From the sequence record NC_025447.1: DNA of 64,000 nt, one strand, 5' to 3'. Each line of letters starts with the position of its first letter. The stretch's first letter is position 1. Under the pieces are notes generated by a model. That model saw only the letters and a program-made list of their open reading frames with translations. It searched no databases and was not told the origin of the DNA. This document shows positions 7,971 to 61,465 of the stretch, piece after piece. The position numbers and the translations under genes are program-made. The DNA comes from Escherichia phage 121Q.

Positions 7971-8044
7971 TATTTATCAGTACAAAATACATTTCGTTAT
8001 CATTAATAAATAAATGAAAGTTCACTACTAAAAGGGCTTAAACA

Positions 8045-25000: not shown

Positions 25001-26052
25001 GCACGAACCCACAAAGAACCATTCCAGTACATAGAACTGTTACCATACTCATTACCTTTGGTGATTAGAACAACATCACCATCTTGAGGTTCACCACTTG
25101 GGCGTGATTCGGTTTCTTCTTCTGGATCTAATGCCAAACCATAAACACGAGTACCATCCTGCATTTTTTTGACATATACATTATAAATTCTATTATTTTC
25201 ACCATTGTTACCAATACTGGTGAATAGAATACGCATACCATCTTGTGGAATAATACCATCAATACGGATGCCACTATTAATATCTTTTTGTACGATATCT
25301 TCAGGTTTGATTATATCTGAGAATAGATCGACAGTTCCACGGAATTTTGTACCGTAGTTAATTAGTTCAATATTTTTATTATATTCGATAATTGGAGCAC
25401 GGGCACGAATAAAGCGAGAATCTTGCATTAATTCTTCAGTTAAAATTGAACCATCTTCTAAAGTTTCACCTAAAGTATACCAAAAGTTTTGTAGTGACCA
25501 TGTATTACCATTAAGTGCACCACGTTCCATTACAATGTAATCAGGTGAAGTAATATTATAAGAGTTTTTAGTATCCCAAAGATATGAGCTAAAATTGTTC
25601 ATTTTATTTGGGTTAATAGCTGGAGTCCATGCATAAAACTTACCGTTGAACAAACGGCTTTCATTATCGGTTAGTGCTCCATAATGATTCATGTATCCAA
25701 CTAGATCATCATAAAATTGAATTGAACGAATTGTCGAATCATCATTTTTTGAGACGTAAGCAGTGGACAACTGATAAAGTTGACGTGCTACAGTACTTTC
25801 ATGTAAGAAGATATTACCAGCAGCGGCAGGAGAACCCATATCACCAATATAGCCGTCAACTAATTCGTTTTCAGCCGGATTAAACCATTGTTGAATAACA
25901 TCATCACTGACTTTTTGAATATCTTCTAAGCCTTGCATCCACTCAGGCAATCTTTTAATAAAAAGCTTCTTCTGTACTGCTTCAGCCATCTGTGTAGGTT
26001 GAAACTTAAAATTATTAGTCATTTTTGGACTCCATATAATTCGTTCATTCAT
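16051..26052 (-). CDS. Giant virion structural protein (3333 aa), probably baseplate or fiber associated
   Basis: Uninterrupted 10-kb ORF directly downstream of the gpJ/gp6-like gene in the same operon; no enzymatic motif recognised. Start is ambiguous: ATG at 26052 has no Shine-Dalgarno, the in-frame ATG at 26022 has GGAG upstream. Confidence 0.6.
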   Translation of the reverse strand: MNERIIWSPKMTNNFKFQPTQMAEAVQKKLFIKRLPEWMQGLEDIQKVSDDVIQQWFNPAENELVDGYIGDMGSPAAAGNIFLHESTVARQLYQLSTAYVSKNDDSTIRSIQFYDDLVGYMNHYGALTDNESRLFNGKFYAWTPAINPNKMNNFSSYLWDTKNSYNITSPDYIVMERGALNGNTWSLQNFWYTLGETLEDGSILTEELMQDSRFIRARAPIIEYNKNIELINYGTKFRGTVDLFSDIIKPEDIVQKDINSGIRIDGIIPQDGMRILFTSIGNNGENNRIYNVYVKKMQDGTRVYGLALDPEEETESRPSGEPQDGDVVLITKGNEYGNSSMYWNGSLWVRAQSKTSVNIFPKFQLYDRNGIKLDNSTTYPSSNFKGSELFGFKINYNYATDSVYGYNIELGDYNYYIYENFLQSQRYTYDHLGKEVEIDGLYYYNIIDENNEMNLQTDWVRSEEYSKQFVKQTPQVKRTDMYRVFSTVYDMEVFKEPVDGMYAYVIEVDRTYQYYKADRETYLDWHPITGDGVQIVKYDHTFELAQKVLDNDSDIIEVVVDGVDVSKYTKNVSKGQVQSITLDSTVDLDEDSVIQIRTYSSTVTPNKELGAYEVPINLQNNPYNSNIIYINQGDYTLHFQDIIQKNITRGSSDDFNDYEERLAKGLVNNGVGTKIIQNEASMLPLMAHTANEDIDLFEATMFMQSEYFRFINKFNTQMLRMYDENPSDFLQNSAANIVDAILTTINMGRDSSFPFYYDNVGSTSGFIRAFIPPTPQFLGILQAYVPEKATFLTAGSKPSCYNISHTGIISKAYRVINGVDKMDDVVYELENRIFNSIDNKFKDVDYVPVLNSDDLFPTPYFTKTEYSAEEKQTLLLRGYINFTATNGISNSTHDYDPNNWRTWNYTGTYYVVNGQSTEIPARGSWRAIYTDQYGTYRPATHPWEMFGFTQRPTWWNQEYEPTAVQVGERDSDVVYVYEALVMNEQGDLVPSGLWDIDGTIGDSSTGTILFGDRRGQYDKYKRFGVQPFKITKTGNKTSSGIDICVVEYIAPEILGLVSGSLNHRAEPWTYGDMGDMEFTYMNTTLFAYDQMMLLYKAKPAQFANYFWDTRNDNLKEVFTDGSQFLYGDTRKRINFDKNTVVHGENSTRTIGYQMFVSDHLMYQNKNITTKYGDVVRSSYINVGHKIGGFTKADQLTFNAKSFGLISQENQTIGLVRSNNIRDEQMSAIKITWNGSAYQIDGYDLVGAKFKYKLPVKNGRKVTLKLENRNVVHYNEWKSEASIEYGKVFNSYQEVYTFICGYGEYLKEHGWIFEDVNDSGAQQDWNTIAKDFVIWSQNSLVTGEFISCTPSAANAKFGADFGSVQSITQNNGGVWSLLDDNNQGIRQYEIETSRIGNIFTVRTLESNKRIALIRLSLCSYEHAVIFDDKTIFGDYIYQPTYGSIQELIKMYGYITGSWTGRLQAPGFIILEAGTLPSFEKLVSDFQHYYDSETPVSDVQLQELSNHLIGYQSRDYLQRMISSDVSRVDFYKGFIHDKGTNQVLERVLRVSKSYDTDEYKALQEWAFKIGTYGNIDGKKNLQFKLINDQFKQQPQMVSFDVNATSNGNGNHIVYFGEQGKDPRWITRPNGKFSFPMRSGRSENIQLPDIGPVTLDEVSYTTKDFSTAYNDRITYTNGKGENPESVWMFKDGNGLWNIFELVDTNVQMVSITPIENTDVYAEQFCKVTLTDNVPLEDGDYYYFVDETNFMPDTLTVESQYYTAGSDPKVMVVPFDTSIDIEFTDPDTRPRLYRYVSRFASTDERQAYIDKKYSFKAPQSTLFDRPTTYDERTNITELYLNVYDPINGVIPGAAMQNVTYTSPVDPAQYNSNGELIQAWGADKVGQVWWNTSTAFYLDYTRAIYDADGNVDIDATNEYKRYNWGRLLPHSTIDVLEWVCSPVEPYNWDKYCKDVAKKNKNNTMYLPSGTALEDNYSTFLEYDSSTDSYVTKYYFWVRDTIYVPPLHTRTKSCTDIARIIKDPTQLNIPWFAPINENSFILSNMQFKVNDDTSILTVSYYMDSTEVVKHDQYQLCKEGDSYNFNPLIWDSMWNSLIGQETTESGSVINLLYPDVDNGLGSNKTWFQNVIEARRNFVESANNYYRSQNITTNSVVMEDVFNVKTTEVNPNEVSFRVLSYNNELVIAVESDKFKENDAVILSTSGYLPNPLTSSAVYFIHFDENGYIQLMNSPANAGSVVTITLENKGEGQHKMIKQSDYVESLGTSLDMTQYWSYADWYDVGYDSNTTYTQESSLEDANTKNYQVGDIIRVTDSENIWTLYIKSQSRDSIYWKAIGRENSTVELNDMLYADYSVHNDNGSLSNREINVRKALALLKNSFDLHQSEIVFDMVKYVHVEQSVVDWVFKTSYIYIVGLEQSLVQNYSNDNLINQIVEYFEEVKPYRTKIRSQIEQKTSDDDLIKGLCNDLDPNGYIFVDGSWIKTEKDIWDYEYAQFNEITQKWEQVGSLPSDFVTPNRRFQEIDIIMHYDNIQCKPNEDLASINELVSVNNKYQSNEKDAVSNYELQRYIYSFPEYSEETFDLLIAYQMQIYYPELDVTLGTAYGVNQWYKDHAEDLEATDEFTATLERVYKESTHNDMFTDLRQYVQYNTLANRLKLYKDISDEKIHDEVGCGFSGLTYNDNPSTRLPLGFSSSNDYNYGYFEISSELYQKYISLIKDKNPDASDYEVKVKLEVEYGVYVYRYDEVGGDTRFYTDAIHVLAGMRGLFDKDATDKYEKAEEILSKTPIDIYAITMIPRKYVYLNVNGVYQSIPDEQSIDDFMEDYFITNGEMVELAEINLDDLPLDQNNPMYSDYQYILDSITEAKYFNDMNAFDNLALESQTSSIKWEVKDDEVDPYIVDISDINPSGRDVGQIRFTVDGYGFDNVSLVQLRDNSRYQTEGMAIINPYKHTEAIVSIPSYAKIENDINKTTSKFDEKYFYRVRSINSLTEAEIVDNDLSDGDKVMIFTPDGEDFVRYQNHTWETILRVSNIKNNTTPILFTVRNTGKETIELIDESTGAVLRYDNITLAQQNEPVQPLALNIVRVRTFADPEFVKNGIKLYEQNRNYTIDVINYDVFYDTTLNGGKYNDGITPDDVDVWIISNEIFDVDGITIDNGYNLPITGAGVLSELARTKMTDSLEINVIEYDSSVIQPFRNNEGIWVYGFPMVDGMYIGVVGGTVTNITTISEENTTYVSQPKSISPYSIRNNVLSGSAANMNDIISIGYEKVEVRNANNLLRGVMYSAEHDFKLNTTYSFNGINLGNYDMLKRYTQNSYTIDLSVYTDSLQVSGNDIKNILLVK

Positions 26053-26070
26053 TTGATTTATTTATGATAT

Positions 26071-26094
26071 AAAAAAGGCGTTCCGAAGAACGCC
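26071..26094 (-). terminator. Intra-operon terminator or attenuator hairpin
   Basis: Minus strand reads GGCGTTC-TTCG-GAACGCC followed by TTTTTT, between the stop of the 1153-aa gene and the giant gene start. Confidence 0.5.
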
Positions 26095-26101
26095 CGTTAT
26101 A

Positions 26102-30332: not shown

Positions 30333-30367
30333 ACATCACTCCATGATTTATATAGAAATATTTATTC

Positions 30368-30394
30368 AAAAAGAAAAGCACTCCGAAGAGTGCT
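30368..30394 (-). terminator. Rho-independent terminator
   Basis: Stem AGCACTC/GAGTGCT (30377-30394) followed on the minus strand by a T-run. Confidence 0.5.
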
Positions 30395-30401
30395 TTTGTA
30401 A

Positions 30402-30812: not shown

Positions 30813-31301
30813 TTATACGGATTCAACGATACGTGCCATCTTTTCCGCTCGTGAAGTGGTTTGTTTATACCATGTACTATCACGCAATTCTTTACCAGCA
30901 GTTTTGTAATCAGCTTTACCTAATGCGGTCATTGCTTTTTTAAATTTCAAAACTTTGGTTTTTCCCATTTGGAATACCATTAACCATAATACACGTTGTA
31001 CCTGTACTGGTGCGGTCATACCGAATTGTTCATAAATTGATTTTGCATCATTGTACGCAGTTTGAGCATCTTTGAGAAGAAGTTGGTCAGCTTGAGCTTC
31101 GGTCAAACCATTCTTGAAATTTTCACCAGGAAGAACTAGATGACCATAACCAATAGTATCAAGACCTAAACTGTCTTTATATACCCAAAACTTATCATTT
31201 TTAAAATAACCAAGTTTTTTCTGATAAGCAATAGTTCCTTCAAATTCTTTAATTTCCTTAAAAAATTGCTCATCTGTATTTTTAATTTCCCATTTACTCA
31301 T
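30813..31301 (-). CDS. Endolysin, T4-lysozyme-like (GH24)
   Basis: 162 aa; FEGTIAY...LDTIGYGHL and VLWLMVFQMGKTKVLKFKKAM...WYKQTTSRAEKMARIV parallel T4 lysozyme (MVFQMG, WYNQTPNRAKRV). Confidence 0.85.
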   Translation of the reverse strand: MSKWEIKNTDEQFFKEIKEFEGTIAYQKKLGYFKNDKFWVYKDSLGLDTIGYGHLVLPGENFKNGLTEAQADQLLLKDAQTAYNDAKSIYEQFGMTAPVQVQRVLWLMVFQMGKTKVLKFKKAMTALGKADYKTAGKELRDSTWYKQTTSRAEKMARIVESV

Positions 31302-31337
31302 AAAGATATCCTCGTTTTATTTATAGTGCTAAAATAT

Positions 31338-34014: not shown

Positions 34015-36264
34015 TTAATCAACTATACTATCGTGACGTTTGAGTGCACGAATTACAATTGCAGCTTGAATTTGTTGTGTAAAAGAACCACCTGCACCAA
34101 AATCATGAACAATTTTATTAACACGATAAATTGTTTGGTTAAATGTGGTTGGTGTATTAATATCCAAAACACCAGTGTTATCATTTATTGATATTACTGG
34201 TTGTAATTTTAGTAATAGATACGCTTCAGATGTTATATAATTTGCTACATGATAATCATCTGGGTTAATTTCCATATCTTCACCATTAATTACTTGTTCT
34301 AGATATTGTAAGTAAGAGTAATCACTCCACCCTAACCAGTACGGGTCGCCTACTACACGCATATCGAGTTTACACAAAAAAGGTCTATTGTAATAGTTGT
34401 CACGTATTTTACGTCTATCCATTTCATATGTGCTGCTGTTATCGTTTAACGAAGCGGATAAAGTTGTTTCATTGTTAGTTGCTTCGGTTGGCATTGTGAA
34501 CACTTCACCATAACGGTGACCAACACCATCAGTACCGCCATCGTTTTCTTCATAAGTGGTTACATAATCTTCAATATATTGAGGTAAAACATTGACTTGA
34601 TAGTTATTATAACGGTCTTGTTCTTCTGCGTTACCAACCTGCATTTGATTTTTTGCTAAAGTTTCAACTTCAGTTAACAATTGTTGTTGGGCTTGTGTTA
34701 ACATCCCTCCTAAATCACGAGTTACACGTAAATCACTTGTTTTTGCCCATGCGTCTGGTATACTATTGTATTGTACACCTTGAATATTGAGTTCTTGGGA
34801 TGTATGTGTACCTGCATGGTTCGCTACATCTTGTATCGGACCAGGGTTACGTGTAGTGGCTACGAAAAATTGCTGATCAAATTTCAAATCCAAATCAAGT
34901 ATCTCACTATTAAGCCCACTAAATTGATAATTATAAGTTTTCATGTTTATTTTTGGTTTTTGATCATTAGGATCTACGTATTTTTCTGCGTTCTCAAAAA
35001 AGTACTCAAATGTGAAATTTTCAGGTTGTAAATCCGATTCATGAACAATATCACCTATTTTAAATCTAACAATATAAAAAATTACTTTATAAACAGAAGT
35101 ATTACGATAATTATCAAAACCAACGTATTGTTTAACTGGTATAATGTTTACAAATTGACGCACACTAGTACTATCATCGGCTTGTACAGTACATGTATCA
35201 ATAACGTCATCAATAATTCGAGATATAGGAGTACTTGGGTTCCATGAAAAGTTTTTAGAACCTTGTGCACCACTTTTAGTTGTTCCGGCCTCTGCCATTT
35301 GTTTAGAATCATAGTTTATAAACAAATCTTGCAAATCAGGTGCTACTTTAAATTCGAAAAATTTACCTTCGGATAATTCACCAAATTTATATCTAAGATA
35401 ACCATATTGTTGGTCAGCCATCTGATTTAATTTATCTTCTAAATCAAAGCAGAAGTCACCAAAGTTTTCAGCAGTACAATTGAATGGTTCTTTTAAGGTC
35501 CATTCAATGTTATCAACTAAAGCTGCTCTATTATGAACTAAGTTCATAGTATACATCATAGTACTACCACTTTGTGAAGCACTTGCAGTAACACTATTAA
35601 TTTTAACTGACCAGCGTCTTGTTGTTTCTGGGATAATTTCAGGTATTCCATTTTTATTAAAGCCAATAAACTTTAATTCCAAGATCAATGGCAAGTCCAT
35701 AAATTTATGATATCTAAGTTTGTTACTTAACGAAATTAATTCATCATATAGACTCATACTATTATTTTCAGACATATTAAGTACTGCTGTATTAAAACAA
35801 TAGTTTGTTGTCATTCCTGGTGTTGAAGGTCCAGCTTGTGTCATTTGTACACTAGTGATATTATATTTGCCAGTAACACCACTTTCTGATATCACATGTC
35901 GTTGCACTTCTGCATCTGGGTAAAGCCAAAAGTTTTTAAAATCATCTTTATCTAAGGCAAATAAACAAAAGTGCCAAGTTGGGTTATCATATTTCAATAA
36001 TTTATTGTCATACGGTATTACAAACTGACTTAAATCGAGATCTTCATAAACTTGATCAACACTAGCACTTTGTTTTGGTAATGATACTACATTACTTACA
36101 TTTGCTTTGTAATTATTTTTTGTAATAGTTTTTACATCATTTTGTAATGTATTTGCTGTAGCTTTCAAACTATCAAGTGCATTAGATGTGGTGGTTTTAG
36201 CCTTACCAGTAATACTTGTAATATCATTTTGAAAATTATCAACTGTACTTCGTAAATCTGCCAT
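34015..36264 (-). CDS. Hypothetical baseplate or tail protein (749 aa)
   Basis: ORF immediately upstream of the spike gene in the same operon; coiled-coil-like N-terminus; function not determinable from sequence. Confidence 0.4.
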   Translation of the reverse strand: MADLRSTVDNFQNDITSITGKAKTTTSNALDSLKATANTLQNDVKTITKNNYKANVSNVVSLPKQSASVDQVYEDLDLSQFVIPYDNKLLKYDNPTWHFCLFALDKDDFKNFWLYPDAEVQRHVISESGVTGKYNITSVQMTQAGPSTPGMTTNYCFNTAVLNMSENNSMSLYDELISLSNKLRYHKFMDLPLILELKFIGFNKNGIPEIIPETTRRWSVKINSVTASASQSGSTMMYTMNLVHNRAALVDNIEWTLKEPFNCTAENFGDFCFDLEDKLNQMADQQYGYLRYKFGELSEGKFFEFKVAPDLQDLFINYDSKQMAEAGTTKSGAQGSKNFSWNPSTPISRIIDDVIDTCTVQADDSTSVRQFVNIIPVKQYVGFDNYRNTSVYKVIFYIVRFKIGDIVHESDLQPENFTFEYFFENAEKYVDPNDQKPKINMKTYNYQFSGLNSEILDLDLKFDQQFFVATTRNPGPIQDVANHAGTHTSQELNIQGVQYNSIPDAWAKTSDLRVTRDLGGMLTQAQQQLLTEVETLAKNQMQVGNAEEQDRYNNYQVNVLPQYIEDYVTTYEENDGGTDGVGHRYGEVFTMPTEATNNETTLSASLNDNSSTYEMDRRKIRDNYYNRPFLCKLDMRVVGDPYWLGWSDYSYLQYLEQVINGEDMEINPDDYHVANYITSEAYLLLKLQPVISINDNTGVLDINTPTTFNQTIYRVNKIVHDFGAGGSFTQQIQAAIVIRALKRHDSIVD

Positions 36265-36275
36265 ACGTTACTCCA

Positions 36276-36590
36276 TTAGCCTATGTTTCGAGTACCATTA
36301 AGATAATTCTGTACTCTTTGATTTGCTGGTATTCTAATTGTTACTCCACTTTTAAAATTATATATAGGATCTTCTCCTAGTATGTCTGGATTTAACAATG
36401 CGAAAATATAATATAAGCGTTCATTACCATACATTTCGTATGCTAAACGCCAAGGTTGATATTCATATTTCAATGGGATCTCATAAAAATCATCAGTATC
36501 AGCCGGAACAATATCACGTGGTAAATTATACCCAAGATACCATGTTTGTTTCACCTTAGCGTAAGGTGAGTATTGACTATAGTTGGACAT
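36276..36590 (-). CDS. Small tail protein with possible LysM-like segment
   Basis: 104 aa; LYYIFALLNPDILGEDPIYNFKSGVTIRIP loosely resembles a LysM motif; 1-nt overlap with the upstream gene. Confidence 0.35.
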   Translation of the reverse strand: MSNYSQYSPYAKVKQTWYLGYNLPRDIVPADTDDFYEIPLKYEYQPWRLAYEMYGNERLYYIFALLNPDILGEDPIYNFKSGVTIRIPANQRVQNYLNGTRNIG

Positions 36591-37321
36591 TAAATGAATC
36601 CTCCTTTACGTAATAGTTCACCACGTTTGAATGCATTGAGGTTGAACGTTTTAGTCATATAATCCGATGTTGGTTGTTCTTCAAGTTGTAACATAACTGA
36701 GATTTTTTGTGGAACCCAAACTTCATCTTGTGGGTTCATATATCCAGTACTTCTAAGTTGTTCGAAGAATTTTCTACTATCCATGTCGGATAAATTAAAA
36801 GTACTATCGCTACTATTCAACGGAACTTGAATATAAGAAACATCATTTGGGTAAGTAAAATTATAAGATTTTAAAATAACAGGAATATCATTATATGTAT
36901 AACGACCATATCCACTTAGAAGTAAGATTGGTGGTGGTGCACCTGCAATTGCGAGTTCGGGGTTATTAGCCGAAGCAGCTTGTCTACCAAAATCCATCAA
37001 TGAAACAGAACGTATAAAATGAACACATGCCAACGCATACATAGCTTCTGCTGCTGTATTTGCATAAAATTCACCCTGAATAGTGAAAACTGTATTAGTA
37101 GTGTTCTTATAGTTGTTATAGTTACTGTTGGTATGTATAGGAGACTGTGTTTCATACTGAATTGACCTTTGTTCAGTAATTGTTGGTGTTACAGTCCAAA
37201 CCAACCCATTAGTTGGACGCAGAAACGAAAGTAGTGTTGGTTCGGAGCTATCCCCGAAATCACCATATACATAGTTAGCACCTGCGGCTTTAGGTCGTAA
37301 TCGAATTCTACGATCAATCAT
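36590..37321 (-). CDS. Hypothetical tail or baseplate protein
   Basis: Start moved to the ATG at 37319-37321 (GGAGAA 8 nt upstream, downstream of a TATAAATA late promoter); the ORF-track start at 37411 has no ribosome-binding site. Confidence 0.4.
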   Translation of the reverse strand: MIDRRIRLRPKAAGANYVYGDFGDSSEPTLLSFLRPTNGLVWTVTPTITEQRSIQYETQSPIHTNSNYNNYKNTTNTVFTIQGEFYANTAAEAMYALACVHFIRSVSLMDFGRQAASANNPELAIAGAPPPILLLSGYGRYTYNDIPVILKSYNFTYPNDVSYIQVPLNSSDSTFNLSDMDSRKFFEQLRSTGYMNPQDEVWVPQKISVMLQLEEQPTSDYMTKTFNLNAFKRGELLRKGGFI

Positions 37322-37356
37322 CTTTTTGATTCTCCATAATAAGGGAACATTTGATG

Positions 37357-37364
37357 TATTTATA
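37357..37364 (-). promoter_or_regulatory. T4-type late promoter TATAAATA
   Basis: Minus strand reads TATAAATA about 36 nt upstream of the ATG at 37321. Confidence 0.45.
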
Positions 37365-37366
37365 CG

Positions 37367-37395
37367 TGGGACAAAATGCTTTTTGGTGCTATAAT
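37367..37395 (+). promoter_or_regulatory. Sigma70-type promoter (TGGGAC-N17-TATAAT) for the sigma-like gene
   Basis: TGGGAC 37367-37372, 17-nt spacer, GGTGCTATAAT with TATAAT at 37390-37395; same motif as at 42068 and 63957. Confidence 0.5.
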
Positions 37396-37452
37396 AACAT
37401 TGATGGTACAAGGATTGTACCTATTGGATTTAAACATGGAGAGTAAAATACA

Positions 37453-38292
37453 ATGACAAATAGACCAAAGCGTAAAAAGTATCTCAATAATGCTGATTTA
37501 CTTCGTGAAATACAAAAAAGTAAGATTTCATACTGCTGGTTATTAGACAAATCATATAGTATGTATGATTATATTGTTTTTCATGAGTCAGAAATTACTG
37601 CTGAGTTACTTGAAAAAGCCAAAGCAGCACGAATCAAACGACTAAACAATGAAATGCTTGATAGTATTCGTGAAAAGGAAAGTATGAGTGCTAAAAAAGC
37701 TAAAGAATATGCAGATGAAAATAATTTAGTTATCACTGATGTTCCAATCGATGAAGTTGTTATTCGTGTTATCACTGATGAACATATTCCACCCGACACT
37801 AGAGTTAACTTTGAACCATTCAAGCATTACATTGTAGATAATGAAGGAATTCTCTATGAAGTATGTCGTTCTCATTGGAAAGGAGATCTTGAAACTGGTG
37901 AATTCAGTACTGTTCATGGTAAAATTACAAATGAACTAGGGAAGATGTTCATTAAACTTGCTGAGGAAATCTCTCATAAATCTAATTACAGAAACTATAC
38001 ATACTTAGATGAAATGATGGGTGATGCAAGAATACAATTAGTTAAAAACGCACTTCTCTTTAAAGAGAGCATTCTTTATAAAAAAGATAAACCAGCAGTT
38101 CAGCTAAATCCTTTCTCTTACTATACATCATTCGTAAACAATAGTTTTCGTTCTATATTGAATAGTGAGAAAAATGTTCGAAATATACGTGATGATTTAC
38201 TTGAAATGCATGGCTTTACGCCATCACATACACGTCAAATTGAAATTGAATTGAACATGATTGAAAGGAAAAATGAAGATGGCTCTGTTTGA
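37453..38292 (+). CDS. Putative late-transcription sigma factor, gp55-like
   Basis: N-terminus PKRKKYLNNADLLREIQKSK resembles my recollection of T4 gp55 (PKYNYVNNKELLQAII); adjacent to the gp47/gp46 homologs as in T4; TATAAATA motifs occur upstream of structural genes. Longer than T4 gp55, so tentative. Confidence 0.45.
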   Translation: MTNRPKRKKYLNNADLLREIQKSKISYCWLLDKSYSMYDYIVFHESEITAELLEKAKAARIKRLNNEMLDSIREKESMSAKKAKEYADENNLVITDVPIDEVVIRVITDEHIPPDTRVNFEPFKHYIVDNEGILYEVCRSHWKGDLETGEFSTVHGKITNELGKMFIKLAEEISHKSNYRNYTYLDEMMGDARIQLVKNALLFKESILYKKDKPAVQLNPFSYYTSFVNNSFRSILNSEKNVRNIRDDLLEMHGFTPSHTRQIEIELNMIERKNEDGSV

Positions 38293-39310
38293 TAAAGCAA
38301 TTACATTCACTGATATTCACTTAGGTTTAAAGAATAACAGCAAGCAACACAATGAAGATTGTTTAAACTTCATTAAATTCATGATTGATGTAGCTAAAAA
38401 AAATAATATCAAAGTTTGTGTTTTTATGGGAGATTATTTTCATAATAGAAGTAATATCAATATTCAAACACTAAACTATGGTTTACAAATTCTTCAATTA
38501 TTAAATGATAATTTTGAAAAAGTATATTTTTTAGTAGGCAACCATGATATGTATCATAAAAACAAACGTGATATAACAAGTATCAATATGGCTCAAGTTT
38601 ATGAAAATATAGAATTCATTAATGAAATTACAACCTTTGATGATTGTACTTTCATTCCATTTATGATTGAAGATGAATATAAGTTGTTACCTCAACTAAA
38701 AAGTAAGTATGTTTTTGGTCACTTAGAGTTACCAGGTTACTTGCTTAACAAGATGGTAGAAATGCCTGATCATGGAAAAGAAACAGAAGGTTCTTTTGGT
38801 GGATGTGAGTATGTTTTTAGTGGACATTTTCATAAACGACAGTCAAAAACAACTTCAAAAGGAACTCGTGTAGTTTATACTGGTAATTGTTTTCCACATA
38901 ATTTTTCCGATACATGGGATGATGCAAGAGGTGTGATGATTCTTGAACATGGCAAAGAACCTATTTTCAAGTCATGGGATAATGCACCAAAATATAGAAC
39001 ATTCACACTTTCTGAATTGTTGACTGATCCAAGCTATTATCTACAAGATAACACAATATCAAAAGTTCAAGTTGATATATCAATAACAACTGATGAGATT
39101 AGTTTTATTCGTGATACATTTACTAAACTTTATAACATTAGGGAGTTTAATGTTGTAACTAGCAAGCAAAGTATTTCAGAATTAATCGAAGATGGTGTTA
39201 GTTTTGAAAGTACTGAATCAGTTGATGAGATAGTTTTACAGCAAATTATGGAAATTGATTCACCAATGTTTGATAAAAATCTTCTAATCCAAATTTACAG
39301 ATCGTTATAA
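38279..39310 (+). CDS. Mre11/SbcD-like recombination nuclease (T4 gp47-like)
   Basis: Calcineurin-like phosphoesterase motifs TDIHLG, GDYFH, GNHD, GHLE and GHFH. Start set to the ATG at 38279 (AAAGGA 9 nt upstream); the ORF-track start is a TTG. Confidence 0.8.
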   Translation: MALFDKAITFTDIHLGLKNNSKQHNEDCLNFIKFMIDVAKKNNIKVCVFMGDYFHNRSNINIQTLNYGLQILQLLNDNFEKVYFLVGNHDMYHKNKRDITSINMAQVYENIEFINEITTFDDCTFIPFMIEDEYKLLPQLKSKYVFGHLELPGYLLNKMVEMPDHGKETEGSFGGCEYVFSGHFHKRQSKTTSKGTRVVYTGNCFPHNFSDTWDDARGVMILEHGKEPIFKSWDNAPKYRTFTLSELLTDPSYYLQDNTISKVQVDISITTDEISFIRDTFTKLYNIREFNVVTSKQSISELIEDGVSFESTESVDEIVLQQIMEIDSPMFDKNLLIQIYRSL

Positions 39311-39318
39311 GGGACTAT

Positions 39319-41466
39319 ATGCTAAACATTACACGTATATCTATGAGGAACTTCTTTTCATTTGGTAATGCACCACAATCAATTGATTTGAATGGTTCCG
39401 ACATTTCATTAGTACTGGGTCAAAATAATGATGCAGTTATTGAAGGTGGTGACAGTACCGGACGTCGAAATGGTGTAGGGAAAAGTGCTATTATTCAAGG
39501 ATTAGTTTTTGGATTATTTGGTAAAAGTATTGGTAATGATATTAAAATTCCGAACCTAGTCAATAAAACTAATGGCAAAAATTGTGAAGTAGTTGTAGAG
39601 TTTGAAAAAGATGGTGTACAATATCTGGTTGAACGTGGGAGAAGTCCCACGTATTTCAATTTTGTTACTTTAGGGAAAGATAATAAAATTGAAGATGAAT
39701 CAAGGGGAGAAAAGAAAGACACACAAGAAGATTTGAATGAAATTCTTGGTATATCTCAATTATTATTTGAACATATTGTAGTACTGAATGCTAACGTTGA
39801 ACCTTTCTTAGCTTTATCCACACAAAAACAACGTGATATGATAGAAGAACTTCTTGGAATAACACAGTTGACGGAAAAAGCTGAAATGCTAAAGGAGATG
39901 TATAAGGATACTAAACGTTTAGCCGAACAAGAAAAGTTCAAAAATGAAACTGTAGCTGCAAGTAATGAACGTATTCAAAAAAGTATTGAGGCACTACAAG
40001 AACAGGCAAACCAGTTTGAAATTGATAAAAATAATAGAGTATCTAAGTTAAATGAAGAGTTGAATATATATAAAACTTTAGACTTTAATGACCTCTATGA
40101 AGCTGCTGACATAAAAGAGAAAGCTCTTATTCATAACGCAAAGCGTGGTGAAATCGAACGCCGTGTACAAGAGTTGGCTTTAAAATTTGATGCATATGAC
40201 CGTGAACTTGAAAGATCTAAAAGAGCATTAAATCTAAGCATTGATAAGCTAAAAACTATTGATATTAGTGCAGAATTGGAAAATCATAATGAGTTGGAGA
40301 TATGGAAACAGTTAGAGGGTATTCTAAAAGAGAATAATAACCAAAAACGTTTCAAAGAACAAAAACTAAACTCACTAAAAATAGCTTTAAAAGGATATGA
40401 ATGTTCAATTAATGCTGAAATTGACAAATTATCAACAGTTGAAAACAGCAAATGTCCACTTTGTATGTCTGAATTGGAACATAACGAACATACTTCTTCA
40501 ATTAAAGACAAAATCCAAAGTACTATTAATGATCTTCGAGCTAAAATTGATAGTTCTTCTTCTGAAATTGAAACATTACTTCAAGAAATTGATAGTATTG
40601 AGATTTTTGATATGCCACCTAAACCTGTGACATATTATAATACACTTTCGGAAGCACAAATGCATGAACATAAGCTTCAAGAATTGGTCAGAAAGAGTGA
40701 AGAAGAACCAATAAACATCTATGCAAATGAACTTATGTCATCATATGATGAACTTAACTCATATGAACTAATGGAAGTTCCAGATACATTAAACAAATAT
40801 GAAGTTAAAGAGTTAGAAATGACTGTAAATTCATTATCACAGCAATTAGATCGTGAATTGAAGACTACTAACACATTTATTAGCCAAATTAATACTCTGA
40901 AGACTGATTCTTTAGTACCAATCGATTATAGCGACTATAATAATCTTGATAAAATGTCAAATCACCAAGATTTCTTGGTTAAATTACTTTTAAACAAGGA
41001 TTCTTATGTCCGTAAACGTATTATTGAGCAAAATATCTCATATTTGAATACACGTCTCCAGTACTATATCGATATGTGCGGTTCTGAGCATAATGTTGTG
41101 TTTTTGAATGATTTGAGTGTTGAAATTGAGAAGAGTGGACAGTACTTTGACTATAAACAGCTTAGTAGAGGTGAGCGTACAAGGGTAAACATCGCATTAT
41201 CTTGTGCTTTCCGTGATACATATGAGTCATTATACCAAAGTATTAATATTCTTATCATTGATGAGATGATTGACCAAGGTCTTGACTCAAGTGGTGTTCT
41301 ACGTGTGTGGTCTATCTTCCAAGATATGGCTGCTGTACGTGGTAAGAACGTTTATGCTATTTCCCACAGAGAAGAGTTACTATCTAAGACTGAAAAAATC
41401 CTCAAAGTTGTTAAAGAGGACGGTTTCAGTACTGTTGAATATGCAACCCTTGACGATGTTTTCTAA
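39319..41466 (+). CDS. Rad50/SbcC-like ATPase (T4 gp46-like)
   Basis: 715 aa; P-loop GRRNGVGKSA, long coiled-coil middle with CxxC zinc hook (NSKCPLC), signature LSRGERTRVNIALSCA, Walker B ILIIDE. Confidence 0.8.
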   Translation: MLNITRISMRNFFSFGNAPQSIDLNGSDISLVLGQNNDAVIEGGDSTGRRNGVGKSAIIQGLVFGLFGKSIGNDIKIPNLVNKTNGKNCEVVVEFEKDGVQYLVERGRSPTYFNFVTLGKDNKIEDESRGEKKDTQEDLNEILGISQLLFEHIVVLNANVEPFLALSTQKQRDMIEELLGITQLTEKAEMLKEMYKDTKRLAEQEKFKNETVAASNERIQKSIEALQEQANQFEIDKNNRVSKLNEELNIYKTLDFNDLYEAADIKEKALIHNAKRGEIERRVQELALKFDAYDRELERSKRALNLSIDKLKTIDISAELENHNELEIWKQLEGILKENNNQKRFKEQKLNSLKIALKGYECSINAEIDKLSTVENSKCPLCMSELEHNEHTSSIKDKIQSTINDLRAKIDSSSSEIETLLQEIDSIEIFDMPPKPVTYYNTLSEAQMHEHKLQELVRKSEEEPINIYANELMSSYDELNSYELMEVPDTLNKYEVKELEMTVNSLSQQLDRELKTTNTFISQINTLKTDSLVPIDYSDYNNLDKMSNHQDFLVKLLLNKDSYVRKRIIEQNISYLNTRLQYYIDMCGSEHNVVFLNDLSVEIEKSGQYFDYKQLSRGERTRVNIALSCAFRDTYESLYQSINILIIDEMIDQGLDSSGVLRVWSIFQDMAAVRGKNVYAISHREELLSKTEKILKVVKEDGFSTVEYATLDDVF

Positions 41467-41477
41467 TTAAAGATAAA

Positions 41478-41500
41478 GGGAGCCTTAGCTCCCTTTTTTT
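41478..41500 (+). terminator. Rho-independent terminator (between convergent genes)
   Basis: Stem GGGAGC/GCTCCC with CTTA loop (41478-41493) then a T-run; overlaps the stop of the minus-strand gene. Confidence 0.6.
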
Positions 41501-41976
41501 ATATCAACCATATTTAATTTACCGTCCTTAATCAGCTTTCTAGCTTGCTTTACACGAGCAGTAGTGTTACTACCAGGGACAACTCCTAACCCTTCCAGAA
41601 TCGCGTTTTGCTGTGTTGCTGGAAGCCTTTTAAACTTATTAACATCCACAGTTAGTGCAGTGTGATGTATAACTTGTTCATCGTCAGGAATGCTGTTATT
41701 ACGCTCTAAGTAATCAGCAAGATTTCTGAGTACCTCATATAATGGTTTATCAGTTAAGTGCTTCATATATCGATTGAAGCTGTTTTGTACCTTTCCTTCC
41801 CAAGCATTGACTTCATTTTGAAGAACTTGTCTACAATGTTGGTTTCCATAGTGGTAGTGATCCAGTACTGGTTTAGTTATTGGTTCTTTAATTATAGGAT
41901 CTATTCCATTTTGTTTCTTTAGTAATTCGTTTCGATAGTTTGCAGCATCCTTACTATCTTTTAATCTTTTTTTCAT
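41485..41976 (-). CDS. Endonuclease VII-like protein (junction resolvase or homing-endonuclease-like)
   Basis: 163 aa; VLDHYHYGNQHCRQVLQNEVNAWEGKVQNSFNRY resembles the T4 endonuclease VII core (HLDHDHELNG...AAEGQMKHKFNR) as I recall it; minus-strand TATAAATA at 42007-42014 upstream. Confidence 0.5.
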   Translation of the reverse strand: MKKRLKDSKDAANYRNELLKKQNGIDPIIKEPITKPVLDHYHYGNQHCRQVLQNEVNAWEGKVQNSFNRYMKHLTDKPLYEVLRNLADYLERNNSIPDDEQVIHHTALTVDVNKFKRLPATQQNAILEGLGVVPGSNTTARVKQARKLIKDGKLNMVDIKKGS

Positions 41977-42006
41977 AATTCCTCACCAAACTATTTGTTA
42001 TCAAAA

Positions 42007-42014
42007 TATTTATA
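42007..42014 (-). promoter_or_regulatory. T4-type late promoter TATAAATA
   Basis: Minus strand reads TATAAATA about 30 nt upstream of the ATG at 41976. Confidence 0.45.
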
Positions 42015-42067
42015 GATTAGTTATTTGCAATATTTTAAGTACTTAATGAATATTTTTATAAAAATAG

Positions 42068-42096
42068 TGAGACAACTTTAAAGTTTGTGCTATAAT
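42068..42096 (+). promoter_or_regulatory. Sigma70-type promoter (TGAGAC-N17-TATAAT) with no downstream ORF
   Basis: TGAGAC 42068-42073, 17-nt spacer, TGTGCTATAAT with TATAAT at 42091-42096. Confidence 0.5.
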
Positions 42097-42102
42097 GTTT
42101 GT

Positions 42103-42557
42103 TGTAGTAATGACAATCCTGTTGAATGCAGAAATGCATATAAATTAGAACCTGATCCTATCGAAAATGTAGATGGCAGATGAGCAGTTCAACAGTGCGA
42201 TGAGCAAAAGAAACCCGTTAGATGTGGGCATAGTTTGAACCCCTCACGGCAATGCGGCTCAATAAAGAACTCCGATAAGCATACAGAGAGTTCCTCGATA
42301 GACATATAAGGATCGCACCTTACCAGATTTGCTAAGGGAGTTTATTAAGTGATTTTAATAAACAGCCTGAAGTTTGATTGTATAGACTTTCAGGTGAGTG
42401 TCAGGATGATTAAGACTGACGACCGTTGCACATGACTGCGATAGAGAGAAACAGAGCAACCCGCTTTCGTTCTTAATATATTTTTAAGAAATTCGCAATA
42501 CAATAAATGCTGAAACCATCAGCGTCAAGAAATAGAGACTTCATTGTCTCTTTTTTA
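42103..42557 (+). ncRNA. Candidate structured non-coding RNA (~450 nt), function unknown
   Basis: Bracketed by the promoter at 42068-42096 and the terminator at 42534-42557; no ORF of 60 aa or more on either strand; visibly more GC-rich than its surroundings; several local hairpins (CCTGAA/TTCAGG, GTCAG/CTGAC, GTTGC/GCAAC, CCTTA/TAAGG). No tRNA T-loop signature found. Confidence 0.4.
42534..42557 (+). terminator. Rho-independent terminator
   Basis: AGAGAC-TTCATT-GTCTCT followed by TTTTTT. Confidence 0.6.
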
Positions 42558-42773
42558 TTGTCTTCATTCCCCTGCGGGGGGATGAAAATGTCCTCAACAA
42601 ATCCCGTCAAGTATTAAATCTTTTAAAGTTCTTTATAATTAATTTAATTAAATGAATATGAGTTACGTAGTAACGAATATTCTTCAGCTAACGAATGAAA
42701 TGAGTTAGATGAATCCAATAATATTAAAATTAATCCTTTCATAATTCAATTCAAATAATTCTGTAGTTTAAAA

Positions 42774-42801
42774 CCAAAAAAAACCAGCAACAATGTGCTG
42801 G
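42774..42801 (-). terminator. Rho-independent terminator of the minus-strand operon ending at 42813
   Basis: Stem CCAGCA/TGCTGG (42784-42801); the plus-strand A-run 42774-42783 is a T-run on the minus strand. Confidence 0.55.
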
Positions 42802-42812
42802 CTATATGAAAA

Positions 42813-43858: not shown

Positions 43859-43988
43859 TTTATTAAATCTCCATGTAATAAATGTGTTTTAGTATTTATA
43901 AGACCAAAAAAGATTAAATTAAACTAATTTTTATATTCTCTATAGTTTCATAAATATTTCTATAATACATCTATTAAAAGGGAATGTT

Positions 43989-49850: not shown

Positions 49851-49858
49851 TATAAATA
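49851..49858 (+). promoter_or_regulatory. T4-type late promoter TATAAATA upstream of the scaffold gene
   Basis: TATAAATA at 49851-49858, about 48 nt upstream of the ATG at 49906; overlapped by an inverted repeat at 49856-49881. Confidence 0.45.
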
Positions 49859-51059: not shown

Positions 51060-51067
51060 TATAAATA
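51060..51067 (+). promoter_or_regulatory. T4-type late promoter TATAAATA upstream of the major capsid gene
   Basis: TATAAATA at 51060-51067, 45 nt upstream of the ATG at 51113; the extended motif TAAATAATATCATACT recurs upstream of 48335. Confidence 0.5.
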
Positions 51068-61194: not shown

Positions 61195-61258
61195 TATAAA
61201 TAACGGGGAACATAGTGTTCCCCAAATTGGTTTGATTTAAAAAGTAAAGGAATACAAA

Positions 61259-61465
61259 ATGCCATTATATACATATCGTTGTGAAAAAGAAGAATGCAAA
61301 CATAGCATGGAAAAAATTGTTAAAATTGCAAACCGTGATGAACCTCATGATTGTCCTAAATGTAATGGTGAAAAAACTATGAAGTTGGAAGTATTCACTC
61401 CAGGTGATAAGGGTGCTAATCTTTATTTCCGTGGAAAATGGTTTGCAAATACTGGAGGTTACTAA
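61259..61465 (+). CDS. Zinc-ribbon protein (FmdB-like)
   Basis: 68 aa; MPLYTYRCEKEEC ... CPKCNG gives two CxxC pairs. Confidence 0.5.
   Translation: MPLYTYRCEKEECKHSMEKIVKIANRDEPHDCPKCNGEKTMKLEVFTPGDKGANLYFRGKWFANTGGY

What the first reader, a model, noticed from the sequence alone, without database searches (positions are those of the whole stretch)
37453..38292. gp55-like late sigma candidate in T4-like synteny, but about 90 aa longer than T4 gp55
The N-terminal similarity, the position next to the gp47/gp46 homologs and the TATAAATA motifs support a gp55-type late transcription system. The extra length suggests an added domain.
Basis: partly seen in the sequence, partly recalled or inferred. 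Interest (0 to 1): 0.4.

Follow-up and report, generated by a model that had tools for sequence, protein, structure and literature searches.

The report
Phage late sigma factor with inserted domain
This gene of a giant E. coli phage is a relative of the phage T4 gp55 late-gene sigma factor, already labelled as such in public records, and its extra length is a compact, uncharacterised domain inserted inside the sigma fold.

Summary
The ORF at 37453..38292 (+, 279 aa) is real. The window is an Asteriusvirus (PBECO4/121Q-like, Rak2-like jumbo coliphage). RefSeq already calls this gene 'sigma factor for late transcription', and a 2017 paper on the relative CBB reports a gp55-like sigma plus ATAAATA late promoters.

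gp55 homology is firm:
- PHROG 234, E 8e-18.
- Family profile against PDB 7D7C gp55, E 1e-7.
- hhalign probability 92%.

The gp55-gp47-gp46 gene order matches T4. All 7 TATAAATA copies sit in intergenic DNA, 16-56 nt upstream of genes in the sense orientation.

The extra 94 aa is not a terminal extension. About 116 aa (residues ~26-141) are inserted between helix H1 and helix H2. Alone, this segment is predicted to fold as an alpha/beta domain (pLDDT 94). It has no Pfam match and no convincing PDB fold match, and it occurs in more than 400 protein clusters, nearly always at the same place in gp55-like proteins.

The T4 clamp-binding C-terminal tail is absent. No gp45 or gp33 homolog was detected in a complete genome. 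What the insert does is inferred: an extra RNA polymerase contact, analogous by position to the sigma70 non-conserved region.

The parts
37368..37395 (+). Promoter upstream of the sigma gene: GGGACA, 16-nt spacer, TGcTATAAT (extended -10)
   Evidence: Consensus scan gives 10 of 12 matches plus TG. The same composite motif, GGGACA-N15-18-TATAAT, occurs 12 times in the complete related genome, always on one strand, and 11 of the 12 carry TG before the -10. This fits pre-late expression. Which sigma factor reads it was not tested.
37438..37443 (+). Ribosome-binding site GGAGAG, 9-11 nt before the ATG
   Evidence: Read directly from the sequence.
37453..38292 (+). Coding sequence of the long-form gp55-type late sigma factor (279 aa)
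37474..37527 (+). Helix H1 (residues 8-25), with the YLNNxDLL motif equivalent to T4 gp55 Y10-L17, including N13
   Evidence: HMM and hhalign local alignments of residues 1-28 to T4 1-28, with high posterior probability over the motif. Y10, L11, N13 and L17 are at least 90% conserved across 27 homologs. AlphaFold predicts a helix at 13-25.
37528..37875 (+). Inserted alpha/beta domain (residues ~26-141) between H1 and H2, absent from T4 gp55
37876..38277 (+). Sigma region-2-like core (helices H2-H4) plus the helix-loop-helix H4-H5 (residues 142-275). A 13-aa loop insert lies at residues 206-218
   Evidence: Aligned to T4 residues 23-116. Predicted helices at 160-174, 185-202, 220-252 and 259-275. 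Residues corresponding to T4 functional residues: E187, D191, F203, Y223, T225, K240.
38279..39310 (+). gp47 homolog (SbcD/Mre11-like nuclease subunit). Its start overlaps the 3' end of the sigma gene by 14 nt
   Evidence: Metallophos and phrog_100 hits. RefSeq places the start at the position equivalent to window 38279.
39319..41466 (+). gp46 homolog (SbcC/Rad50-like subunit)
   Evidence: phrog_77 E 4e-108 and Rad50 zinc hook.
37357..37364 (-). TATAAATA late-promoter motif, 35 nt upstream of the divergent virion structural gene (start at 37321)
31318..31325 (-). TATAAATA, 16 nt upstream of the baseplate hub/lysozyme gene (start at 31301)
42007..42014 (-). TATAAATA, 30 nt upstream of the endonuclease VII gene
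43893..43900 (-). TATAAATA, 34 nt upstream of the baseplate hub gene
49851..49858 (+). TATAAATA, 47 nt upstream of the gene that follows the prohead protease
51060..51067 (+). TATAAATA, 45 nt upstream of the major head protein gene
61195..61202 (+). TATAAATA, 56 nt upstream of a small ORF (start at 61259)

Best explanation
The gene encodes the late-gene promoter-specificity subunit of a Rak2-like jumbo coliphage, a homolog of T4 gp55.

Proposed sequence of events:
1. The gene is made before the late phase, from a sigma70-like promoter with an extended -10 element.
2. The protein binds the clamp helices of the host RNA polymerase beta' subunit through its region-2-like helices.
3. It recognises the single -10-like element (T)ATAAATA upstream of virion and other late genes, by flipping adenines into pockets, as T4 gp55 does.
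4. Its H4-H5 helix-loop-helix holds the template strand.

It has no region 3 or 4 and reads no -35 element.

It differs from T4 gp55 in two ways. A ~116-aa acidic alpha/beta domain is inserted between H1 and H2, and there is no C-terminal sliding-clamp-binding tail. If H1 is the counterpart of sigma region 1.2, an equivalence I inferred rather than read from a residue-level alignment, the insertion site corresponds to the place where primary sigma factors carry their non-conserved region.

Shown here: homology, fold, architecture, conserved contact residues and promoter placement. Inferred: binding to host core polymerase, timing of expression, and the role of the insert. My preferred reading is that the insert makes an extra contact with RNA polymerase (beta' clamp side) that stabilises the holoenzyme or open complex.
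For: Homology:
- phrog_12791 over the full length, and phrog_234 at E 8e-18.
- Reciprocal hits of T4 gp55 to both families.
- PDB profile hit to 7D7C_F at E 1.2e-7.
- hhalign probability 92%.

Functional residues defined by Shi et al. 2021 (PMC7892883), mapped through the alignments:
- Identical: N13=N13, F86=F203, Y97=Y223, T99=T225. All four are invariant or nearly invariant in the family.
- Conservative: L54->I173, R57->K176, R114->K240.
- Changed: H95->F221.
- The acidic residues that bind the clamp helices, E70=E187 and D74=D191, are kept; E77 is not.

Promoters:
- 7 of 7 TATAAATA and 17 of 20 ATAAATA copies in the window are intergenic. All 7 TATAAATA and all 17 intergenic ATAAATA copies point at a gene start.
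- Genome-wide there are only 14 TATAAATA in 352 kb, 10 of them intergenic.
- The same late motif was reported for the relatives CBB and GAP32 (PMC5259590).

Insert:
- Confident autonomous fold.
- Conserved in 407 cluster representatives in the same context.
- Net charge -8.
- The sigma70 non-conserved region lies between regions 1 and 2, contacts the beta' clamp-toe and has an acidic loop (PMC7822876).
- The RpoS fragment 'partial region 1.2 + region 2' aligns over 94 of its 96 residues to the model.

Context:
- The gp55-gp47-gp46 order is kept even in a homolog only 47% identical.
- The related jumbo phage PA5oct is reported to rely on host RNA polymerase (PMC7318152, abstract and text).
Against: - No biochemical data exist for this protein or for any long-form homolog.
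- Two alignments compete for T4 helix H1: residues 8-25, or residues 124-139, which BLASTP and the top hhalign alignment prefer.
- No conserved sequence element was seen upstream of ATAAATA, apart from a weak T-rich tract that is partly made of terminator tails.
Confidence: 0.85

Rival explanations
1. The inserted domain replaces the T4 gp33/gp45 'mobile enhancer' in cis. The long-form sigma would then be self-sufficient, and late transcription in Rak2-like phages would not be coupled to a sliding clamp loaded at replication forks.
For: - There is no T4-type clamp-binding motif. The protein ends 4 residues after H5, whereas T4 gp55 has a 21-residue linker followed by SLDFLYEAND.
- In a complete related genome, phmmer with T4 gp45, gp33 and gp62 finds nothing, while gp44 is found at E 9e-22.
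- No clamp was found among the neighbours of the gp44 homolog.
- No clamp family appears among the strongest 25 of the 44 Pfam families matched by all 118 ORFs of 170-300 aa.
- The CBB paper also found no gp33, gp45 or gp62.
Against: - Absence was tested by sequence methods only, and gp33 and clamps diverge quickly.
- In one search only the strongest 25 of 44 matched Pfam families were displayed. A weak clamp hit (E between 2e-5 and 0.01) could be hidden.
- Iyer et al. 2021 state that group-2 jumbo phages generally have a gp33 ortholog and a PCNA-like clamp.
- A clamp-loader homolog is present, which implies some clamp.
- Some distant long-form homologs carry both the insert and acidic, aromatic C-terminal tails (e.g. 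...LNDIISYDD...TLVDFDDWEDD) that look like clamp-binding motifs. The insert is therefore not a general substitute for the tail.
- The insert is acidic, so a role in upstream DNA contact is unlikely.
Confidence: 0.25
2. The inserted domain is a docking platform for another phage protein, such as a co-activator, a replisome component or an anti-sigma regulator. Late transcription would then still be controlled in trans.
For: - The domain is autonomous, confidently predicted and acidic, with a set of invariant residues (C28, I41, R105, F120, K124, plus the SHW.G...G.F connector).
- It has no DNA-binding fold match.
- It is retained together with clamp-motif-like tails in some relatives.
Against: No partner has been identified, and no conserved neighbouring gene other than gp47/gp46 and baseplate genes was seen. 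This idea could not be separated from the RNA-polymerase-contact idea with the tools available.
Confidence: 0.2
3. The protein is a sigma-like factor for a different promoter class (for example middle genes), or is not a transcription factor at all.
For: The phage group has at least three promoter classes and a second, sigma70-family sigma factor (CBB paper). No experiment links this protein to ATAAATA.
Against: - Most of the residues that T4 gp55 uses to read the adenines of TATAAATA are conserved (four identical, two conservative substitutions, H95 changed to F221), and several are invariant.
- The only T4-late-like motif in the genome is ATAAATA, and it sits upstream of structural genes.
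- The fold is closest to gp55.
Confidence: 0.05
4. The extra length is an artefact: a wrongly called start, a fusion of two genes, or the remnant of a mobile insertion.
For: Inteins do invade this gene family.
Against: - The conserved H1 motif sits at the extreme N terminus, so the start is right.
- The full-length architecture is conserved down to about 40% identity and across 407 cluster representatives.
- AlphaFold gives one confident model (pLDDT 87.7, pTM 0.78).
- The inteins sit in a different loop (H2-H3), and the insert has no intein or endonuclease signature.
Confidence: 0.02

Closest known systems
Bacteriophage T4 gp55 (late sigma factor; PDB 7D7C/7D7D; PHROG 234)
   Same: - Region-2-like four-helix core plus an H4-H5 helix-loop-helix.
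- Conserved residues for reading the -10-like element and for binding the beta' clamp helices.
- No regions 3 or 4.
- Cognate TATAAATA-type promoters upstream of late genes.
- The gene lies upstream of gp47 and gp46.
   Different: - 279 aa against 185 aa.
- A ~116-aa alpha/beta domain is inserted between H1 and H2, and a 13-aa loop is inserted between H3 and H4.
- The C-terminal linker and sliding-clamp-binding motif are missing.
- H95->F and E77->I.
- The first T of the promoter octamer is not conserved in this phage group.
- Partners gp33 and gp45 were not detected.
Rak2-like phage 'gp55-like sigma factor' (CBB_244; PBECO4 YP_009150844; PHROG 12791)
   Same: This is the same protein family. 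The window's protein is 98-100% identical to those of the Asteriusvirus genomes listed (H1, H2; P0001), and is annotated as a late sigma factor in RefSeq and in GenBank submissions.
   Different: Nothing differs in sequence terms. What is added here is the domain architecture, which the papers I could search do not describe.
Non-conserved region (sigmaNCR) of primary sigma factors such as E. coli sigma70
   Same: A lineage-specific module inserted between the first helix of domain 2 (region 1.2) and region 2.1. It is acidic, lies on the outside of domain 2, and in sigma70 contacts the beta' clamp-toe (PMC7822876).

Membership tests
T4 gp55-type late sigma factor | Sigma region-2-like helical core (H1-H4) detectably homologous to T4 gp55 | tested here: met
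T4 gp55-type late sigma factor | Long H4 plus H5 forming a helix-loop-helix, with a basic residue (T4 R114) that contacts the template strand | tested here: met
   Predicted helices at 220-252 and 259-275. K240, invariant in the family, aligns with R114. This rests on a predicted structure only.
T4 gp55-type late sigma factor | Pocket residues that read the -10-like element (T4 N13, L54, R57, F86, H95, Y97, T99) | tested here: met
   Four are identical (N13, F203, Y223, T225), two are conservative changes (I173, K176) and one is changed (F221).
T4 gp55-type late sigma factor | Acidic H3 residues that bind the beta' clamp helices (T4 E70, D74, E77) | tested here: inconclusive
   E187 is invariant. 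D191 is present here but variable in the family. E77 corresponds to I194.
T4 gp55-type late sigma factor | C-terminal sliding-clamp-binding motif ((S/T)LDFL-type) after a flexible linker | tested here: not met
   The protein ends at ...IERKNEDGSV, 4 residues after H5. No such motif is present, and the tail is about 32 aa shorter than in T4.
T4 gp55-type late sigma factor | Cognate TATAAATA-type promoters upstream of late (virion) genes, with no -35 element | tested here: met
   7 of 7 TATAAATA and 17 of 20 ATAAATA copies are intergenic, and the intergenic copies point at a gene start. Genome-wide counts. No conserved upstream element was found.
T4 gp55-type late sigma factor | Works with the co-activator gp33 and the sliding clamp gp45 | tested here: inconclusive
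   Neither was detected by phmmer in a complete genome, by PHROG scan of the gp44 homolog's neighbours, or among the strongest 25 of 44 Pfam families matched by ORFs of 170-300 aa. Sensitivity is limited, and the literature disagrees.
T4 gp55-type late sigma factor | Binds host RNA polymerase core and directs late transcription | not testable with these tools
   Needs biochemistry or genetics.
Sigma70-family non-conserved region (as an analogue of the insert) | Insertion between region 1.2 and region 2.1 of sigma domain 2 | tested here: inconclusive
Sigma70-family non-conserved region (as an analogue of the insert) | Structural similarity to a known sigmaNCR fold | tested here: not met

The most novel reading that the evidence does not exclude
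The inserted domain makes this sigma factor self-sufficient. It would supply in cis the stabilisation that T4 obtains from gp33 plus the DNA-loaded sliding clamp, so late transcription in Rak2-like jumbo phages would be uncoupled from replication forks. This would be a second, clamp-independent solution within the gp55 family, represented by hundreds of uncultured phage lineages.
Probability: 0.25. Interest if true: 0.6.

Novelty: new variant of a known kind. Interest (0 to 1): 0.33.

Why it matters
T4 gp55 is the only characterised member of its family. It is the textbook case of a minimal sigma factor that needs a DNA-loaded sliding clamp as a 'mobile enhancer'.

This work defines a widespread long form. 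It has more than 400 clusters at 50% identity and is found in Rak2-like, PA5oct-like and many uncultured phages. It carries a confidently predicted domain without a recognisable relative at the position where primary sigma factors have their non-conserved region. In the Asteriusvirus group it lacks the clamp-binding tail.

This makes a concrete question testable: can a gp55-type sigma factor work without the clamp, and does the insert provide the missing affinity?

On the practical side, the sigma identity itself is already annotated. For genome annotation, this finding is ordinary.

Tried and rejected
Searches that found nothing useful:
- phmmer of the single sequence against PDB: no gp55 hit. 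A family profile was needed.
- Pfam and NCBIfam have no model that matches this protein; NCBIfam also has none for T4 gp55.

Ideas about the insert that were rejected:
- A fused gp33, gp45 or gp62: hhalign probability below 1%.
- An internal duplication of the sigma core: N-terminal against C-terminal half, probability 0.1%.

The alignment of T4 H1 to residues 124-139, preferred by BLASTP and by the top hhalign alignment, was rejected for three reasons:
- The region is predicted as a beta-hairpin.
- Its alignment posteriors are low.
- The residue that would match the functionally required N13 is not conserved there, whereas the N-terminal YLNN motif is.

Search for gp45, gp33 and gp62:
- phmmer on all 1809 ORFs of a complete genome.
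- PHROG scan of ten neighbours of the gp44 homolog.
- Pfam on 118 ORFs of 170-300 aa.
- tblastn of T4 gp33 reaches only T4-like phages, so no diverse profile could be built.
- All negative, but of limited sensitivity. Reading a full annotated genome table was abandoned after the first 50 kb because it was almost all 'hypothetical protein'.

Other checks:
- No strong conserved element upstream of ATAAATA that the insert might read.
- The 5'-UTR hairpin at 37405-37421 is not more stable than shuffled sequences (z -1.05).
- Rfam search of the 0.8-kb ORF-free stretch at 41977-42812: nothing above threshold.
- No tRNA genes in the window.

Full report
**What the window is.** Bases 36000-42000 match Escherichia phages vB_EcoM_G17, Sharanji and PBECO4 at 99.3-99.6% identity. 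PBECO4 is classified in the genus Asteriusvirus, a Rak2-like jumbo phage of ~350 kb. RefSeq NC_027364 annotates the gene at the position of the finding as 'sigma factor for late transcription'. It is flanked on one side by baseplate and virion genes on the opposite strand. On the other side lie a metallophosphoesterase and an AAA ATPase, the gp47 and gp46 homologs.

**Check of the observation.**
- The ORF at 37453..38292 (+) starts with ATG, encodes 279 aa and has GGAGAG 9-11 nt upstream. T4 gp55 is 185 aa, so the difference is 94 aa.
- The next genes are gp47-like (Metallophos; phrog_100, E 3e-75) and gp46-like (phrog_77, E 4e-108; Rad50 zinc hook).
- In T4 the order in the direction of transcription is 55, then (after several small genes) 47, then 46. 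The window has the same order without the intervening genes.
- The gp47-like gene starts at 38279 and overlaps the sigma gene by 14 nt.
- The same arrangement (baseplate genes, long sigma, gp47-like, gp46-like) is found on a metagenomic contig whose sigma is only 47% identical.

**The TATAAATA motifs.**
- The raw count in the window (7) is below the chance expectation of 11.1 +/- 2.7. The count by itself supports nothing.
- Position is decisive. All 7 copies are intergenic, in the sense orientation, 16-56 nt upstream of a gene start. The genes include the major head protein, baseplate hub genes, endonuclease VII and the virion gene divergent from the sigma gene. Only 1.5% of all placements in the window qualify.
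- None occurs in the 92% of the window that is coding.
- For the 7-mer ATAAATA, 17 of 20 copies are intergenic, and all 17 point at a gene start.
- In a complete related genome (OR844650, 352 kb) there are only 14 TATAAATA copies, 10 of them intergenic, and 23 intergenic ATAAATA copies within 100 nt upstream of a start.
- The first T of the octamer is not conserved. An A is favoured 6 nt after the motif (17 of 23 sites), where T4 late transcripts start (the T4 start position is from my own knowledge).
- Buttimer et al. 2017 reported the same ATAAATA late motif for the relatives CBB and GAP32 (PMC5259590).

**Is it a gp55 homolog?** Yes.
- The protein matches phrog_12791 ('sigma factor for late transcription') over its full length (E 3e-154). 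It also matches phrog_234 over residues 125-262 (E 8e-18).
- T4 gp55 itself hits phrog_234 at E 3e-69, and hits phrog_12791 at E 5e-7.
- BLASTP against T4 gp55 is weak (E 2e-4, 24% identity), and a single-sequence search of PDB finds nothing.
- A profile of 27 homologs (alignment A1) finds PDB 7D7C chain F, gp55, at E 1.2e-7. hhalign gives probability 92%.
- An AlphaFold2 model built on A1 is confident (pLDDT 87.7, pTM 0.78).

**Functional residues.** Shi et al. 2021 (PMC7892883) defined the T4 gp55 residues that form the pockets for the flipped adenines, bind the beta' clamp helices, and hold the template strand. Mapping through the alignments:

| T4 residue | Role | Here |
|---|---|---|
| N13, F86, Y97, T99 | adenine pockets | N13, F203, Y223, T225 (identical; invariant or nearly invariant in the family) |
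| L54, R57 | adenine pockets | I173, K176 (conservative) |
| H95 | adenine pocket | F221 (changed) |
| E70, D74 | bind clamp helices | E187, D191 (kept) |
| E77 | binds clamp helices | I194 (not kept) |
| R114 | holds template strand | K240 (conservative) |

The long H4 (220-252) and H5 (259-275) reproduce the helix-loop-helix.

**Where the extra length is.** The HMM alignment to T4 gp55 comes in two pieces: residues 1-28 to T4 1-28, and residues ~142-243 to T4 23-116. hhalign shows the same, with high posteriors on KKYLNNADLLREI against KYNYVNNKELLQAI. The length difference adds up as follows:
- Residues ~26-141 have no T4 counterpart (+~116-119 aa).
- A loop at residues 206-218 is extra (net about +7 aa over that stretch).
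- The tail after H4 is ~32 aa shorter than in T4.
- Together these give the observed +94 aa.

BLASTP and the top hhalign alignment instead place T4 H1 on residues 124-139. I rejected that placement for three reasons:
- The segment is predicted as a beta-hairpin with pLDDT above 90.
- Its alignment posteriors are low.
- The residue that would match the functionally required N13 is not conserved there, whereas Y10, L11, N13 and L17 are at least 90% conserved.

I could not inspect model coordinates. The packing of H1 onto H2-H4 is therefore inferred and was not verified.

**The inserted domain.**
- Predicted on its own (alignment A2, residues 26-156), it folds with pLDDT 94.4 and pTM 0.83. It forms a small beta-sheet together with a long helical hairpin (helices at whole-protein residues 50-76 and 80-89).
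- It has no Pfam family and hits no PHROG other than 12791.
- It is unrelated to gp33, gp45 or gp62, and is not a duplication of the sigma core (hhalign probabilities below 1%).
- Its net charge is -8.
- An exhaustive HMM search of 1.84 billion cluster representatives with the insert profile found 407 proteins at E <= 1e-3 and 261 at E <= 1e-10. In nearly all of these the match starts at residue ~22-28 of a 240-320-aa protein, the same context as here.
- The few short matches look like truncated gene calls, so the search gave no clear stand-alone or other-context occurrence among the 150 listed.
- Some members (P0164, P0180) have a shortened helical hairpin. The beta part and the invariant SHW.G...G.F connector are the conserved core.

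**Position of the insert in sigma terms.** The RpoS fragment 'partial region 1.2 and region 2' aligns over 94 of its 96 residues to the model. This suggests that H1 corresponds to region 1.2. If so, the insertion lies where primary sigma factors carry the non-conserved region. In E. coli sigma70 that region lies between regions 1 and 2, has an acidic loop and contacts the beta' clamp-toe; sigmaS and sigmaE lack it (PMC7822876). There is no fold similarity between the two, so the analogy is positional.

**The clamp-coupling apparatus.**
- T4 gp55 has a 21-residue linker and a C-terminal clamp-binding motif (SLDFLYEAND) after residue 153. The window's protein ends 4 residues after H5 with ...RKNEDGSV, so there is no such motif. 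Its last codons overlap the gp47 start.
- Across the long-form family the tails are heterogeneous. The Rak2-like clade ends right after H5. Some distant members end in acidic, aromatic tails (for example LNDIISYDD, TLVDFDDWEDD) that resemble clamp-binding motifs.
- In the complete genome OR844650, phmmer finds the gp44 clamp-loader homolog (E 9e-22) but nothing for gp45, gp62 or gp33.
- The gp44 homolog's neighbours are not clamps.
- Pfam on all 118 ORFs of 170-300 aa shows no clamp family among the 25 strongest of the 44 matched families.
- This agrees with the CBB paper. It conflicts with the general statement of Iyer et al. 2021 that group-2 jumbo phages have a gp33 ortholog and a PCNA-like clamp. 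The sequence methods used here are not sensitive enough to settle it.

**Expression of the gene.**
- A promoter-like site, GGGACA-16 nt-TGcTATAAT, lies at 37368-37395.
- The same composite motif recurs 12 times in the complete genome, always on one strand. Eleven of the 12 carry TG before the -10. By my rough estimate, about 0.3 copies would be expected by chance.
- The CBB paper places its gp55-like gene behind a 'divergent RpoD-like' promoter class that also precedes replication genes.
- This fits pre-late (middle-type) expression, as for T4 gene 55 (my own knowledge). It has not been tested.

**How it most likely works.**

Shown here:
- Homology and fold.
- Conserved contact residues.
- The insertion architecture.
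- The missing clamp-binding tail.
- The placement of ATAAATA motifs upstream of late genes.

Inferred:
- The protein replaces sigma70 on host core polymerase. The related phage PA5oct is reported to rely on host RNA polymerase (PMC7318152).
- It recognises ATAAATA as single-stranded DNA in the transcription bubble.
- The acidic insert adds a contact on the beta' clamp side that stabilises the holoenzyme or open complex.

Rivals for the insert's role:
- An in-cis substitute for gp33 and gp45, giving clamp-independent late transcription (probability about 0.25).
- A docking site for an unidentified phage partner (about 0.2).

**Novelty.** The sigma identity is already known: it is in RefSeq and GenBank annotations, in PHROG 12791 and in Buttimer et al. 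2017. I found no paper describing the inserted domain or the loss of the clamp-binding tail. I therefore rate this as a new variant of a known kind, of moderate interest to specialists in phage transcription and ordinary for annotation purposes.

Noticed in passing
Proteins P0130, P0133, P0147, P0155, P0219, P0244, P0246 (homologs found); equivalent to window residues 182/183, nt ~37996-38001: Several long-form gp55 homologs are 445-980 aa long because they carry inteins. Five of the ten scanned give weak, sub-threshold Intein_splicing or LAGLIDADG Pfam hits. In the three sequences inspected (P0130, P0133, P0147), the intein sits exactly in the conserved NYRNY|(T/S)Y.DEM loop between H2 and H3. 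This is just before the helix that binds the beta' clamp helices in T4 gp55. Inteins in a phage sigma factor gene appear not to have been described.
   Followed up: partly
window 37368-37395 (+); 12 copies in OR844650 (L004-L011), listed: A recurrent promoter-like composite, GGGACA-N15-18-(TG)nTATAAT, occurs 12 times in the 352-kb genome, always on the same strand. By my rough estimate about 0.3 copies would be expected by chance. It is probably the Asteriusvirus counterpart of the 'divergent RpoD-like' (middle?) promoter class described for CBB with a different -35 (TGAAACG). TGAAACG itself gives no intergenic hits here.
   Followed up: partly
window 37405-37421 (+): A 7-bp hairpin, GGTACAAGGATTGTACC, lies at the predicted 5' end of the sigma mRNA and was flagged as terminator-like. 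It is not more stable than shuffled sequence (z -1.05).
   Followed up: yes
window 41977-42812: An 836-bp stretch between the endonuclease VII gene and a baseplate gene has no ORF longer than 45 aa and no annotation in RefSeq. It has no tRNA and no Rfam hit above threshold (best: Arrc14 sRNA, 35 bits against a gathering score of 99). A 1.5-kb stretch at 1448-2938, where my ATG-only gene set called no gene (ORF listing shows a 182-aa GTG ORF at 1673-2221), was not examined.
   Followed up: partly
window 26053-26101, 30333-30401 (- strand); also OR844650 sites: Several late-promoter motifs sit immediately after a GC-rich hairpin plus T-run, for example gggcgttcttcggaacgcc-tttttt-atatcATAAATA. 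These look like back-to-back terminator-promoter units between structural genes. They account for part of the apparent T-tract upstream of the motif.
   Followed up: no
window 7971-7977 (-) / 8006-8012 (+) and 43893-43900 (-) / 43950-43956 (+): Pairs of divergent ATAAATA motifs sit in the two ~110-130-bp intergenic regions between divergently transcribed gene blocks. These are likely bidirectional late-promoter regions.
   Followed up: no
window 16051-26052 (-): A single 3333-aa ORF, annotated in RefSeq as a virion structural protein, lies just upstream of the baseplate wedge gene.
   Followed up: no
OR844650 60301-61290 (L005) and the rest of that genome: A clamp-loader (gp44) homolog is present (E 9e-22), but no sliding clamp, gp62 or gp33 is detectable by sequence. 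A fragment matching the DNA polymerase III alpha family is present (Pfam DNA_pol3_alpha, E 2e-9). Which clamp this phage uses is open.
   Followed up: partly
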